A model generated the notes under the pieces. That model ran no database searches. It had not been told where the DNA came from and saw only the letters and a list, made by a program, of their open reading frames with translations. A stretch of DNA of 64,000 nt from Promethearchaeota archaeon (GTDB taxonomy: Archaea; Asgardarchaeota; Lokiarchaeia; Sigyniarchaeales; SOKP01), in NCBI GenBank assembly GCA_048937405.1, contig JBHLNF010000002.1:192001-256000 (forward strand), written 5' to 3'. Shown here one piece after another: positions 2,021 to 5,148 of the stretch. A program made the translations under genes and the position numbers. Position 1 is the first letter of the stretch. Every line of letters starts with the position of its first letter.

Positions 2021-2113
2021 GGTTTCACTGAAAGAACAATTTAGTATTAATTAAGGTTAGAATTTATAATATAAAAACTTAATTTAAGAAGAGATAAAAA
2101 AATATTATTGAAG

Positions 2114-2296
2114 TTTAACCACATTTACTCACGTGACCGGGTATTTTCCTTGTAGGCCATGACCGTAAGCTAACTTACAGTTTGTAGTTTCCCATAGATC
2201 GCAACTACAGTACTATCTACAACGCATACGAGTTTAACTTCCGGGTTCGGATGGTTCCAGCGCAGTAGCGAATTGCTACAAAGTAATGTGGTTAAA
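2114..2296. repeat. Inverted repeat enclosing the 5S-like RNA (candidate processing stem)
   Basis: TTTAACCACATT (2114-2125) is the exact reverse complement of AATGTGGTTAAA (2285-2296); extends about 3 bp after a 1-nt bulge. Confidence 0.8.
2132..2256 (-). rRNA. rrf: 5S rRNA-like gene, apparently circularly permuted
   Basis: Minus strand has CCAUCCGAACCCGGAAGUUAAACUCGUAUGCGUU...AGUACUG...UGGGAAA...CUGUAAG (canonical middle and 3' part), then UUAG, then CUUACGGUCAUGGCCUACAAGGAAAAUACCCGGUCAC (canonical 5' part). Confidence 0.8.
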
Positions 2297-2446
2297 AAAG
2301 CTATTTATAACCAATATATAAGGTCGGTTATTTTATAAGAAAATACCTACTTATATGGTTACAAGTAAATAGGAATAATAAACGCTAATAATTAAAATTT
2401 TTGCTTTTAAACGTTAACTTTAAAAGGAATAAACATAGGAGTTTAA

Positions 2447-3018: not shown

Positions 3019-5148
3019 TTAACCTATTTTTTCAATTTCTTTAATAATTCGGGAATATTTTAGGAAATATTTTACGAACGTGAAAATTGTAATTCCTATT
3101 GTAGCTATAATCAAAAATGTAAATGTTATAAGTAATATACTAGTTAAAGTTTCAGATACATAAAATTTGAATCCAGGATTATTGAAGATATTAGAATTAT
3201 TAGCATAGTCTCGTGAAATAATGCAATAGGAATAATCACCTGAAGTTAGTCTATCTATTGTAATTTTAAATAGCTCTTTATTATATTCATAATTATTTAT
3301 AGAAACATAATAAAAGTAAGTCTTAAAATTATTTTTTGATATTAACAAATAAACACTTTCTATTCCAGAATTATTATCATAGGTTTCAATAATAAAAGTT
3401 ATTTGATTAGAAGTAGAAGGATTATGAGGTATTATTTCTAGTCCATTTAATTGGGGAATAGTTATATCAGAGAGAGTAGTAAAATTAAAATGAGTTGGGA
3501 CTAAATTATGTCCAGTAATGATAACATTATAATCTTCATTTGGTTGAGCAGGTAATCGAAAACTCACTGATCCATTTTCATCAGCATATGTTGTAAAATA
3601 TTTACCATCAGAGGATTCCAAATGAATTCTTCCATAGGGAATGATATTGTTATCAATATCTTTTAATATGATTGAAACTAATTGTCCTTCGTATATATTC
3701 CCAGTAAATGGATTTGATGCTACTTTAGGTTTGTTAGTATAGACATCGAGTTCAGGATCACCCAAAAGACAATAGGTTAAAATGTTTTTACGTTCGAAAT
3801 CTAAATCTGTTGAAGTTGCTCCTCTATTATAATAATCACTATTAATATAAGCAACTTTTGAATCATAAAGCGCCATTCCTTGCTGAAATTTTTTATTGAC
3901 AAAAAATTCTCTCCAAAATAATTTAGCATTACCACGATTTAATTTCTCCAGATTTTCATCATTTTCAAGATACCAAGTGACTCTTAATCCTCCAATTGCC
4001 CCAATAGCTCCACCATCTTCTTTTTTTATTAATGTTTCCCCTACACTATTATTATAATCATAACTAGCGGTTGAACAGGCGTCTAAATAGATTAGAGAAG
4101 GCATATTTTCATTTAAACAATTATTAGCATTTGAAGAAGAATATCCAGGACTAGAGGGGGTTCTATAATAAGCTGTTGGTATACCATGTCCTGCCATTAA
4201 TACAGTAGAATATCCATTATCAAAATAATTAGAAAGAGCCGTTTGTGTAAGATTACCAGCTTCTCCTACTAAGTGAGTATAATTTAGTACATCTGCAGCA
4301 TAATTTTCTATAATATAGCCAGTTAAGCGACTTTCATATTCTCCATCAGGATCTTCACTAGTGGGATAATCAGAAATTCCCCCTGCTAATAACATCCGAT
4401 TCATCCAATCACCCACTAATGGATTAGTTTCATATTGCAATGTTTTATTTACCATAATTTCAAGTTGATAAGAATTATCCGCTGGTAGTCTCCCTACATA
4501 CACTTCAGGAATCCATGATATTTCATCCAAACCATAAGAATTATCTCGCGGAGCTTCTCCCCATATTGAATCATCATCATTATCCCATGTACCTGTAAGA
4601 TCAGCATAATAATAATCTGTTGGTTTATATTCCTCATTACCAACAGTTTCAGATCTTCCGTCCCCCCATCTTGAAACATCAGGATTATATACTTTTCTTA
4701 TAGGAATTAGATTATCTTGAGCGTCACCTGCCAAAAGAACCCATCGAATATTTTCTTTTTCATAATAATCCTTGATCATATTTCGAATTTTTTCAGCATT
4801 ATCTCTTCCTTCATATAAAGAATAGTTACTTAAAATAATTGTTTTTACTCCTTTTTCATTTTTCCATTCCATTAAAGGCGTAACACCATTAATAAAACCG
4901 CTATTGTTTGGAGTAATAATCAACATTTCGATTTTTGGGTTATACCAGAGATCATTTAGTGAAGAATAATTAGTTTCTGGCAAAAAAGTCAAATCTAACT
5001 CCAAATCTCCATTAGATGTTTTAATTTTTGTAGAGATATTATTTGTAGAATTTAACAGGTTAGCATTTTGGCTTATATTGATCAGTGGCACAAGAGCAAA
5101 AACGACTACTGAAAAGTAGATAATTTTTTTAATAGATAATCTAACCAT
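3019..5148 (-). CDS. Peptidase C25 (gingipain-family) cysteine protease, membrane anchored
   Basis: WVLLAGD, TDYYYADL, VYVGRLP, catalytic-type AGHG and DACS motifs, YCLLGDP; signal peptide and C-terminal TM. Confidence 0.9.
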   Translation of the reverse strand: MVRLSIKKIIYFSVVVFALVPLINISQNANLLNSTNNISTKIKTSNGDLELDLTFLPETNYSSLNDLWYNPKIEMLIITPNNSGFINGVTPLMEWKNEKGVKTIILSNYSLYEGRDNAEKIRNMIKDYYEKENIRWVLLAGDAQDNLIPIRKVYNPDVSRWGDGRSETVGNEEYKPTDYYYADLTGTWDNDDDSIWGEAPRDNSYGLDEISWIPEVYVGRLPADNSYQLEIMVNKTLQYETNPLVGDWMNRMLLAGGISDYPTSEDPDGEYESRLTGYIIENYAADVLNYTHLVGEAGNLTQTALSNYFDNGYSTVLMAGHGIPTAYYRTPSSPGYSSSNANNCLNENMPSLIYLDACSTASYDYNNSVGETLIKKEDGGAIGAIGGLRVTWYLENDENLEKLNRGNAKLFWREFFVNKKFQQGMALYDSKVAYINSDYYNRGATSTDLDFERKNILTYCLLGDPELDVYTNKPKVASNPFTGNIYEGQLVSIILKDIDNNIIPYGRIHLESSDGKYFTTYADENGSVSFRLPAQPNEDYNVIITGHNLVPTHFNFTTLSDITIPQLNGLEIIPHNPSTSNQITFIIETYDNNSGIESVYLLISKNNFKTYFYYVSINNYEYNKELFKITIDRLTSGDYSYCIISRDYANNSNIFNNPGFKFYVSETLTSILLITFTFLIIATIGITIFTFVKYFLKYSRIIKEIEKIG

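What the first reader, a model, noticed from the sequence alone, without database searches (positions are those of the whole stretch)
2114..2296. Circularly permuted 5S rRNA gene inside a long flanking stem
Seen on the minus strand: the RNA starts within loop C (ACCAUCCGAACCCGGAAGUUAA), runs through helices IV/V to the normal 3' end (CUGUAAG), then a UUAG linker, then the normal 5' end (CUUACGGUCAU...UACAAGG...ACCCGGUCAC). Helix I (CUGUAAG/CUUACGG) is therefore a hairpin closed by a tetraloop. Helix II (UACAAG/CUCGUA, one mismatch) and helix III (CCGG/CCGG) pair across the halves. Joining the ends at the shared AC gives CCGG-UCACCAUCCGAAC-CCGG, the same 13-nt spacing I recall for canonical archaeal 5S. 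A 12-bp perfect IR brackets the unit, a small hairpin (2265-2279) lies in the leader, and a TATA-like TTATATAT sits at 2314-2321. Known: permuted tRNA and SRP RNA genes exist in archaea and permuted 5S rRNAs in some organelles; I know of no permuted archaeal 5S gene. Inference: the precursor is cut and ligated in loop C into a circular or re-linearised 5S, or it functions nicked. I could not identify a clean bulge-helix-bulge.
Basis: partly seen in the sequence, partly recalled or inferred. Interest (0 to 1): 0.9.

Follow-up and report, generated by a model that had tools for sequence, protein, structure and literature searches.

The report
Back-to-front 5S rRNA gene, ring product
This Asgard (Lokiarchaeia-type) archaeon encodes its only 5S ribosomal RNA back half first between tRNA-intron-type cut signals, and public environmental RNA from close relatives contains exactly the predicted cut-and-rejoined 120-nt ring, a form of 5S rRNA I could not find in the literature.

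Summary
Window 2096-2296 (minus strand) is the only 5S candidate in a 4.47-Mb, 100%-complete genome. It is circularly permuted, with helix I closed by a UUAG tetraloop.

Leader UGCG-[CUGG]-AA|C pairs with trailer [CCGG]-UC|A-CGUG. The join is GGUC|CCAUCC, giving a 12-nt loop C, not GGUCAC|CAUCC with 13 nt.

I wrote this prediction down before laying RNA. Contigs from four metatranscriptome studies then covered exactly 2135-2254. None covered the leader or trailer, and they wrap C2135 onto C2254; one is a 151-nt closed-cycle contig.

A model of the permuted core finds one copy in 117 of 130 genomes of the family. The standard 5S model passes threshold in only 2 of 134, both on contaminant-like contigs. 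The sister family has ordinary genes.

Relatives place the break at a second position, yet the same BHB frame yields the same product. About a third also carry 30-nt inserts, most of them BHB-shaped.

The cut and the join are shown for RNA of close relatives. EndA and RtcB are inferred. Whether the ring itself sits in the ribosome is open.

This scan had already found permuted 5S genes on other Asgard DNA. I found no published report.

The parts
2314..2321 (-). TATA-like box TTATATAT, about 20-25 nt upstream of the first base of the distal stem; probable promoter
   Evidence: Sequence. Canonical 5S genes of the sister family and the Odin-type permuted gene L113 have TTTATATA at the same distance from the RNA start. 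The transcription start itself was not mapped.
2285..2296 (-). Distal processing stem, 5' arm (UUUAACCACAUU)
   Evidence: 12-nt perfect inverted repeat with 2114-2125. Cofolding of leader and trailer extends it to 16 pairs with one bulge. 81% of cells are paired in 23 type-A relatives, and 6 pairs change on both sides.
2265..2279 (-). Leader hairpin GUAGC-AAUUC-GCUAC, between the distal stem and the BHB
   Evidence: 93.8% of cells are paired in relatives, with G:C to A:U at the closing pair in 4 sequences. Its role is unknown. It is absent in L055, where the outer helix runs straight into the BHB.
2261..2264 (-). BHB outer helix, leader arm (UGCG), pairs with 2130-2133
   Evidence: 4 contiguous pairs. 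The three G/C pairs are 100% paired in 23 type-A relatives. The helix has a different sequence but still pairs in type B and in other Asgard families, for 5-11 bp.
2257..2260 (-). BHB central 4-bp helix, leader arm (CUGG), discarded with the leader
   Evidence: Pairs with CCGG 2137-2140. 4 of 4 pairs in 83 of 89 distinct loci. Combinations: CCGG:CCGG 31, CUGG:CCGG 27, CUGG:CCAG 18, CUGG:UCAG 4. No C-A combination occurs.
2254..2256 (-). Bulge A (AAC); cut between 2255 and 2254
   Evidence: Predicted from BHB geometry (note). RNA contigs begin at 2254 and are joined there to 2135.
2135..2254 (-). Processed 5S RNA, 120 nt; C2135 is ligated to C2254 (ring)
   Evidence: RNA contigs of runs X15, X16, X19 and X20 (four studies) cover 2135-2254 only. 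Loose ends at 2135 and 2254 read on into the other end. X16 record 4 is a 151-nt closed-cycle contig. X15 record 1 bridges the joint with 24 and 36 nt.
2174..2254 (-). Back part of 5S: loop C 3' part, helix III 3' strand (2244-2241), helix II 3' strand (2232-2224), helix V (2222-2217 / 2187-2182), loop E, helix IV (2210-2205 / 2197-2192), helix I 3' strand (2180-2174)
2170..2173 (-). UUAG tetraloop joining the normal 3' and 5' ends of 5S
   Evidence: It is always 4 nt in the close relatives (UUAG, UUCG, UUUG). In other Asgard families it is UUCG, UGCG or UUUCG. RNA contigs run through it.
2135..2169 (-). Front part of 5S: helix I 5' strand (2169-2163), loop A, helix II 5' strand (2157-2149), loop B, helix III 5' strand (2140-2137), then UC
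2137..2140 (-). CCGG with two roles: BHB central helix (trailer arm) in the precursor, helix III 5' strand in the product
2134..2136 (-). Bulge B (UCA); cut between 2135 and 2134
   Evidence: Predicted. RNA contigs end at 2135 and are joined to 2254.
2130..2133 (-). BHB outer helix, trailer arm (CGUG)
2114..2125 (-). Distal processing stem, 3' arm (AAUGUGGUUAAA)
2096..2102 (-). Run of 7 T, probable archaeal terminator
   Evidence: Sequence. T-runs follow the trailer in relatives. Not tested.

Best explanation
The locus is the genome's single 5S rRNA gene, written in circularly permuted order. A transcript of about 200 nt (roughly 2296 to 2096, minus strand) folds so that leader and trailer form three elements: a long distal stem, a short outer helix, and a 4-bp central helix flanked by two 3-nt bulges. 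This is a relaxed bulge-helix-bulge site.

The splicing endonuclease cuts after the second nucleotide of each bulge, at 2255|2254 and at 2135|2134. The two ends of the inner piece are joined, presumably by RtcB. That gives a 120-nt covalently closed RNA. Loop C (UCCCAUCCGAAC) is restored by the ligation, and helix I is capped by UUAG.

Shown: the permuted order, the conserved and covarying fold and BHB geometry, the exact RNA boundaries, and the ligated junction in environmental RNA of close relatives. Inferred: that EndA and RtcB are the enzymes, and that the ring itself, rather than a re-opened form, is built into the ribosome.
For: 1. Only candidate. RF00001 finds nothing else in the 100%-complete genome. 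The joined loop-C sequence is not encoded anywhere in its DNA.

2. Permutation. This rests on the HMM test and on covariation of the permuted fold: 95.1% of cells paired and 13 pairs with changes on both sides.

3. BHB. All 26 first loci have a 4/4 central helix, 3-nt bulges and an outer helix. So do 83 of 89 distinct loci. The BHB helices are 100% paired in 23 type-A precursors.

4. Same product from different genes. Type A (this window) and type B relatives break the gene 16 nt apart. The same cut rule gives the same product in both, and the predicted type-A junction CCCGGUC+CCAUCCGAAC is encoded contiguously in type B.

5. Prediction before test. The cut sites were written down. RNA contigs from four studies then covered 2135-2254 only and joined C2135 to C2254.

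6. Enzymes are encoded. There are two EndA paralogues (197 and 200 aa, 30% identical, each with N- and C-terminal domains) and one RtcB.

7. Clade-wide. There is one full-length hit of the permuted model in 117 of 130 family genomes at 72-130 bits. RF00001 passes its cut-off in only 2 of 134, on contigs of 37% G+C against 27% that carry bacterial-looking 5S.

8. Precedents. Permuted SRP RNA of Thermoproteus is circularised at a site cut by the splicing endonuclease (PMC4731332). Engineered E. coli 5S with native ends closed by a tetraloop and new ends in loop C or D works in ribosomes (PMC7283268).
Against: - The RNA evidence is assembled contigs of related strains (90-99% alike), not raw reads of this organism. 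Contigs cannot give abundance, ends or strand.
- The BHB is relaxed. The outer helix next to the bulge is only 3-4 bp here with G:U pairs, there is no inner helix on the leader side (a bulge-helix-loop), and the minimum-energy cofold prefers a slightly different pairing (GCUGG:CCGGU).
- No enzyme assay was done.
- Nothing shows that the ring rather than a re-opened form is in ribosomes.
Confidence: 0.87

Rival explanations
1. The ring is only a processing intermediate. As for archaeal circular pre-16S and pre-23S RNA, it is re-opened, here in or next to the UUAG loop, to give a conventional linear 5S with normal ends.
For: Circular pre-rRNA intermediates that are later linearised are the accepted archaeal pathway for 16S and 23S (PMC12918454 background; PMC8339473 listed). 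Contigs cannot show molecule ends, so re-opening is not excluded.
Against: The linker is a minimal 4-nt loop whose third base varies and which shows no conserved cleavage motif. RNA contigs run through the linker, and no leader or trailer words are present that could assign those words to primary transcripts. Contig stops at 2170 coincide with a strain difference at 2171. A tetraloop-closed helix I is compatible with ribosome function in E. coli (PMC7283268). 23S rRNA stays circular or permuted in some archaeal ribosomes (PMC12918454, PMC7758197).
Confidence: 0.3
2. The transcript is trimmed but not ligated, so the ribosome uses a permuted linear 5S with its ends in loop C, as proposed for some organellar 5S rRNAs.
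For: Permuted 5S rRNAs are described in organelles (PMC4267664).
Against: RNA contigs in four studies carry the covalent junction C2135-C2254, and one is a closed cycle. BHB cleavage leaves ends that RtcB joins, and RtcB is encoded.
Confidence: 0.03
3. The locus is a pseudogene or an assembly artefact of two 5S copies, and the real 5S gene is unassembled.
For: rRNA genes are often missing from metagenome-assembled genomes. The locus fails the Rfam cut-off.
Against: The same arrangement sits at a syntenic single-copy locus in more than 100 genomes, including closed ones (G006, G023). It shows compensatory changes. The processed RNA is present in RNA libraries. No canonical gene is found in the family apart from two contaminant-like contigs.
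Confidence: 0.02

Closest known systems
Permuted, circularised SRP RNA of Thermoproteus tenax (Plagens et al. 2015, eLife, PMC4731332)
   Same: A universal structured RNA is encoded in permuted order. Its termini lie next to a functionally important loop. [quoted passage not shown] The canonical gene is 'missing' from annotation.
   Different: The RNA here is a ribosomal RNA (5S), not SRP RNA. The trait covers a whole family and further Asgard lineages, not a few species. The break point moves between relatives, and some genes carry 30-nt inserts as well. No enzyme or binding assay was done here.
Circularly permuted tRNA genes (Cyanidioschyzon merolae, cited in PMC4267664; Thermofilum pendens, from my own knowledge)
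   Same: The 3' half comes before the 5' half. A BHB forms between leader and trailer, and a circular intermediate arises by endonuclease plus ligase.
   Different: Permuted tRNAs are re-opened at their normal ends by RNase P and tRNase Z. No equivalent end-maturation signal is visible at the 4-nt loop of this 5S.
Archaeal circular pre-16S/pre-23S rRNA and permuted or circular mature 23S (PMC7758197; PMC12918454; bioRxiv 10.64898/2026.03.23.713588)
   Same: A processing stem with a BHB, cutting and ligation to a ring. For 23S, a ring or permuted form is retained in ribosomes.
   Different: Those genes are collinear with the mature RNA. The background of PMC12918454 states that 5S rRNAs are not processed this way. 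Here the gene itself is permuted, so ligation is needed to build loop C.
Organelle-encoded permuted 5S rRNAs (Valach et al. 2014, PMC4267664)
   Same: A natural 5S gene with permuted order that escapes standard covariance models.
   Different: They are organellar and highly reduced, with no BHB or splicing-endonuclease context. The present case is a cellular archaeal ribosome with a demonstrated ligated junction.
Engineered cp5S rRNA in E. coli (Huang et al. 2020, PMC7283268)
   Same: Native ends are closed by a tetraloop and new ends are placed in loop C or D, the same loops that hold the natural break and insert sites here. The ribosomes function.
   Different: It is artificial, fused into 23S and not circular.

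Membership tests
5S rRNA (Rfam RF00001) | Score at or above the curated gathering threshold (38 bits) | tested here: not met
   32.2 bits in genomic order, with the leader forced into the 5' half. The model cannot read a permuted gene. The tools cannot run it on the re-ordered sequence.
5S rRNA (Rfam RF00001) | Three-way junction with helices I-V supported by covariation | tested here: met
   In permuted order, 32 pairs are 95.1% paired and 13 show changes on both sides, against 37-50% in slid controls.
5S rRNA (Rfam RF00001) | Full-length collinear similarity to bona fide 5S after re-ordering | tested here: met
   The HMM of sister-family canonical 5S gives one hit, HMM 4-114 at 47.1 bits, on the re-ordered ring. 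The genomic order gives two swapped pieces.
5S rRNA (Rfam RF00001) | Presence in ribosomes | not testable with these tools
   It is the only candidate in the genome and the RNA is present in metatranscriptomes. No ribosome preparation is available.
BHB-dependent permuted RNA genes (permuted tRNA, Thermoproteus SRP RNA) | 3' part encoded upstream of the 5' part, with native ends joined by a short linker | tested here: met
BHB-dependent permuted RNA genes (permuted tRNA, Thermoproteus SRP RNA) | Bulge-helix-bulge at the new termini: two 3-nt bulges on opposite strands separated by 4 bp, with flanking helices | tested here: inconclusive
   The central 4 bp and both 3-nt bulges are present, conserved and covarying. 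The outer helix is only 3-4 bp in this window, though 5-11 bp in other loci. The inner helix is absent, so the leader-side bulge opens into a loop (relaxed hBH / BHL form).
BHB-dependent permuted RNA genes (permuted tRNA, Thermoproteus SRP RNA) | Cut after the second bulge nucleotide and ligation of the inner fragment, seen as junction reads | tested here: met
   RNA contigs of four studies end at 2135 and 2254 and join them. These positions were predicted. The contigs come from close relatives, not proven to be this strain.
BHB-dependent permuted RNA genes (permuted tRNA, Thermoproteus SRP RNA) | Splicing endonuclease and RNA ligase encoded | tested here: met
   Two EndA-family genes and one RtcB.
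BHB-dependent permuted RNA genes (permuted tRNA, Thermoproteus SRP RNA) | Cleavage of the precursor by the endonuclease in vitro | not testable with these tools
   Needs recombinant enzyme and transcript.

The most novel reading that the evidence does not exclude
The covalently closed 120-nt ring is itself the 5S rRNA of the ribosome in this family and in other Asgard lineages. That would be an rRNA with no ends whose most conserved loop exists only after RNA ligation. EndA and RtcB would then be obligatory ribosome-biogenesis enzymes, and the BHB site could slide and multiply (two break positions, 30-nt inserts in loops C and D) without changing the product.
Probability: 0.55. Interest if true: 0.92.

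Novelty: new variant of a known kind. Interest (0 to 1): 0.88.

Why it matters
5S rRNA is taken to be a universal, directly transcribed linear RNA. A current paper's background says archaeal 5S, unlike 16S and 23S, is not circularised (PMC12918454).

In this lineage close to eukaryotes, the only 5S gene cannot give a functional fold without cutting and ligation. It explains why 5S looks "missing" from most Asgard genomes: the standard model passes its cut-off in only 49 of 151 sampled. It also makes the tRNA-splicing machinery part of ribosome biogenesis.

The finding gives a natural test of whether a ribosome can use an end-less 5S. The exact junction and boundaries are now known, so probes, primers and cryo-EM models can be designed directly.

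The sister family, which includes closed genomes of 4.4 and 6.0 Mb, has ordinary genes. The two states can therefore be compared within one order.

Tried and rejected
- Rfam at gathering threshold on the window found nothing. I replaced it with an nhmmer test and pair counts.
- A brute-force BHB search ranked by outer-helix length was swamped by A+T-rich chance stems. It worked only after requiring G:C pairs in the central helix and a plausible ring length. Six of the 89 picks are still mis-picks.
- Minimum-energy folding of the ring or of the re-ordered RNA does not return the 5S fold. Cofolding of leader and trailer pairs GCUGG:CCGGU rather than the 3-4 bp outer helix. I gave this no weight against the comparative evidence.
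- Contig depths cannot tell a ring from a re-opened form, so I did not use them.
- Parts of the stretch without RNA cover (leader, trailer) count only together with the contigs that join across them.
- I could not assign the BHB of the family-f3 permuted gene (L011/L099, break near loop B) by eye.
- The 31-nt insert in the helix I loop of L122, L127 and L128 fits a BHB only with a 4-nt bulge. I left it open.
- The sigma-70 and terminator scan is not relevant to archaea.
- Pfam found nothing for the two flanking 180-aa ORFs.
- The two RF00001 hits over the cut-off in the family (L094, L095) look bacterial and lie on contigs of higher G+C. I treated them as contamination without proving it.
- Literature searches for a permuted or circular archaeal 5S found none.

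Full report
**What is in the sequence**

On the minus strand of window 2096-2302 the order is as follows.
- TATA-like box (2321-2314).
- Distal stem arm UUUAACCACAUU (2296-2285).
- Small hairpin GUAGC/GCUAC (2279-2265).
- UGCG-CUGG-AAC (2264-2254).
- Back part of a 5S rRNA, from the loop C 3' part to the helix I 3' strand CUGUAAG (2254-2174).
- UUAG (2173-2170).
- Front part of 5S: CUUACGG, loop A, helix II 5' strand, loop B, CCGG, UC (2169-2135).
- A-CGUG (2134-2130).
- Second stem arm AAUGUGGUUAAA (2125-2114), then a run of seven T (2102-2096).

The 12-nt perfect inverted repeat is confirmed.

**Is it a 5S gene, and is it the only one?**

Rfam finds nothing in the window at gathering threshold. 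At a relaxed threshold RF00001 gives 32.2 bits (cut-off 38) for 2172-2283, by forcing the leader into the role of the 5' half. That is the only 5S candidate in the whole genome, which is 4.47 Mb in 29 contigs and 100% complete.

A profile HMM built from eleven canonical 5S genes of the sister family matches the genomic order as two swapped pieces: HMM 36-115 at 33.4 bits, followed by HMM 3-31 at -0.2 bits. It matches the re-ordered RNA as one piece, HMM 4-114 at 47.1 bits.

I aligned 26 distinct relatives (A1) and counted the permuted fold.
- 95.1% of cells are paired, against 37-50% when the 3' partners are slid.
- 13 of 32 pairs have changes on both sides.
- Five of these are in helix II, which pairs across the two halves. 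One is the closing pair of the helix I hairpin, G:C to A:U.

**Who carries it**

Record titles of exact matches to the helix I junction name Asgard MAGs: Promethearchaeota and Promethearchaeia, including Loki_b32 and the ABR and DZ series.

A covariance model of the permuted core (R1) gave these results.
- One full-length hit at 72-130 bits in 117 of 130 genomes of the window's family, across at least twelve genera.
- The sister family f2 has ordinary 5S genes at 54-68 bits, with a promoter directly in front and a T-run behind, and no BHB. It includes closed genomes of 4.4 and 6.0 Mb. R1 gave only a weak 39-bit match there, to a canonical gene.

RF00001 passes its cut-off in only 2 of 134 genomes of the window's family. 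Both hits are on contigs of 37% G+C against 27%, and their 5S looks bacterial, so they are probably contamination.

Across the phylum sample, RF00001 passes in 49 of 151 genomes. R1 also picks up permuted genes in three other families (L113, L114, L115). These have perfect 9-10 bp outer helices, 4-bp central helices, 3-nt bulges, and helix I closed by UUCG, UGCG or UUUCG.

**The cut site**

The real BHB geometry, reading each strand 5' to 3', is outer helix, central 4 bp, then a 3-nt bulge cut after its second nucleotide. With that geometry the window reads:
- leader UGCG-[CUGG]-AA|C-CAUCC...
- trailer ...AUAC-[CCGG]-UC|A-CGUG

All 26 first loci fit this frame, as do 83 of 89 distinct loci in a wider set. 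The central helix covaries without ever giving a C-A combination:
- CCGG:CCGG, 31 loci
- CUGG:CCGG, 27 loci
- CUGG:CCAG, 18 loci
- CUGG:UCAG, 4 loci

The outer helix changes sequence completely between lineages yet still pairs. Examples are AAAAUG:CAUUUU, GCACUAGA:UUUAGUGC, and 10-bp helices in other families. In 23 type-A precursors the two BHB helices are 100% paired and the distal stem 81% paired.

The motif is relaxed. There is no inner helix, so the leader-side bulge opens into a loop. In this window the outer helix is only 4 bp, two of them G:U.

**Two break points, one product**

Most of the window's genus breaks the gene inside loop C (type A, 27 distinct loci). Many relatives, and the other Asgard families, break it 16 nt further on, after the helix III 3' strand (type B, 54 distinct loci).

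The same cut rule gives CCCGGUC+CCAUCCGAAC for type A. That string is written contiguously in type B genes. For type B the rule gives GAACCCGGAA+GUUAAAC, which is written contiguously in type A genes.

This convergence argues that the rule is right. Because type B is shared with distant families, type A is probably the derived state (inference).

**RNA**

I wrote the predicted cut sites into the notebook before using the single read-laying run. Six RNA libraries hold words of the stretch. I laid four, from four studies.
- Their contigs cover 2135-2254 and nothing in the leader or trailer.
- The loose letters before 2135 are the + strand of 2241-2254, and those behind 2254 are 2135-2150. The RNA therefore reads ...CCCGGUC|CCAUCCGAAC...
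- X15 record 1 bridges the joint with 24 and 36 nt.
- X16 record 4 is 151 nt, which is a 121-nt cycle plus the 30-nt overlap of a closed path. It contains both the type-A and the type-B junction, so no genomic DNA of either type could have produced it.
- The joined loop-C string does not occur in the genome's DNA.

The contigs are 90-99% alike to the window, so they come from close relatives. Being contigs, they say nothing about abundance or molecule ends. Contig stops at 2170 sit next to a strain difference at 2171.

**Enzymes**

The genome encodes two EndA paralogues of 197 and 200 aa. They are 30% identical, and each has the N-terminal and catalytic C-terminal domains. It also encodes one RtcB.

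Two paralogues suggest a heteromeric endonuclease of the kind known, from my own knowledge, to accept relaxed bulge-helix-loop sites. This is inference only.

**Inserts in relatives**

29 of 81 well-annotated distinct loci carry an extra 30±1 nt, in three places.
- Loop C, 16 loci.
- Loop D or helix IV, 10 loci.
- The helix I loop, 3 loci.

By hand, the loop C class (UCCG-AA|A...CGGG-AA|C) and two loop D classes (UUGC-GA|N...GCNN-AA|U, and CUGC-AA|A...GCAG-AA|U) have BHB geometry with covarying inner helices. Their excision restores exactly the sequence of insert-free relatives.

The helix I loop insert does not fit cleanly. Splicing of these inserts was not tested.

**Comparison with what is known**

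The mechanism matches the permuted SRP RNA of Thermoproteus (PMC4731332) and permuted tRNA genes. Circular or permuted 23S in ribosomes is known (PMC7758197, PMC12918454).

Permuted 5S is known only from organelles (PMC4267664). A tetraloop-closed 5S with ends in loop C or D works in engineered E. coli (PMC7283268).

Five literature searches found no permuted or circular archaeal 5S. The background of PMC12918454 states that 5S is not processed by circularisation.

This scan had already noted permuted 5S genes in many other Asgard genomes. Those notes include an RNA ring in a Heimdall-group case and 30-nt inserts in Loki-type genes. My results agree and add three things for this family: the RNA junction, the corrected join, and the two break points with one product.

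**Verdict**

This is a real, conserved, expressed, circularly permuted 5S rRNA gene. Its transcript is cut at a relaxed BHB and ligated. Cutting and joining are shown at the RNA level for close relatives. The enzymes are inferred. Whether the ring is the mature ribosomal form (my estimate 0.55) or an intermediate that is re-opened (about 0.3) remains open.

Noticed in passing
L012, L014, L017, L025, L034, L036, L051, L055, L060, L088, L090, L108-L111, L134, L138, L145-L153 (relatives' 5S loci): About a third of distinct permuted 5S genes in the family carry a 30±1-nt insert in loop C or in loop D/helix IV. Most have BHB geometry with covarying inner helices, and their excision restores the insert-free sequence. 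They are probable splicing-endonuclease mini-introns in a 5S rRNA gene.
   Followed up: partly
L122, L127, L128 (genus g16): A 31-nt insert replaces the helix I tetraloop (CUGUAAA-UUGAUUGCGCGCUUCGCGCCGCAAGCAAAGAUUC-GUUUACGG). It fits a BHB only with a 4-nt bulge, so it may be an expansion of helix I or an atypical intron.
   Followed up: partly
L090 (G129:C1): The loop C insert contains a copy of the neighbouring 5S segment GGAUAAUACCCGGUCCC. This looks like a remnant of a local duplication and may bear on how break points move.
   Followed up: no
L041 / L100 (G115:C109, about 700 nt downstream of the intact gene): A partial second copy of the permuted gene. The front part and a type-A trailer are intact, but the back part is replaced by unrelated sequence (R1 37.7 bits). 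Probably a pseudogene remnant.
   Followed up: no
L011 / L099 (G026, family f3): A G+C-richer permuted 5S gene whose break lies near loop B rather than loop C, with helix I closed by a longer loop (GCUGUC-UACUUAG-GACGGC). R1 scores 49.7 bits and RF00001 37.6 bits on a part. Its cut site was not resolved.
   Followed up: partly
window 2307-2373 (minus strand): The region upstream of the gene is conserved across the genus and holds two hairpins: CCUAUUUACUU...AAGUAGG (2373-2346) and AUAACC...GGUUAU (2331-2307). The second encloses the TATA-like box. Function unknown.
   Followed up: no
L004/L027 (G032:C1:1399892-1400758) and L005/L028 (G039:C66): Sister-family genomes carry two or three canonical 5S genes in tandem at about 365-375-bp spacing. 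Tandem copies are a plausible starting point for a permuted gene.
   Followed up: no
L094 (G076:C68) and L095 (G094:C263): Bacterial-looking canonical 5S genes on contigs of 37% G+C inside MAGs of this 27% G+C family. Probably contaminating contigs.
   Followed up: partly
window 3019-5148 (minus strand): A 709-aa ORF with a Peptidase_C25 (gingipain-type) domain (E 1.3e-56). The two 180-aa ORFs flanking the 5S gene (1478-2020 minus, 2447-2989 plus) have no Pfam match.
   Followed up: no
X16 record 5 and X20 record 19: Two further 150/151-nt closed-cycle RNA contigs come from a more distant relative. They match only 2202-2255 of the window and read ...UACCCGGU|ACCAUCC.... This suggests rings of a second, more divergent 5S lineage in the same samples.
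   Followed up: no
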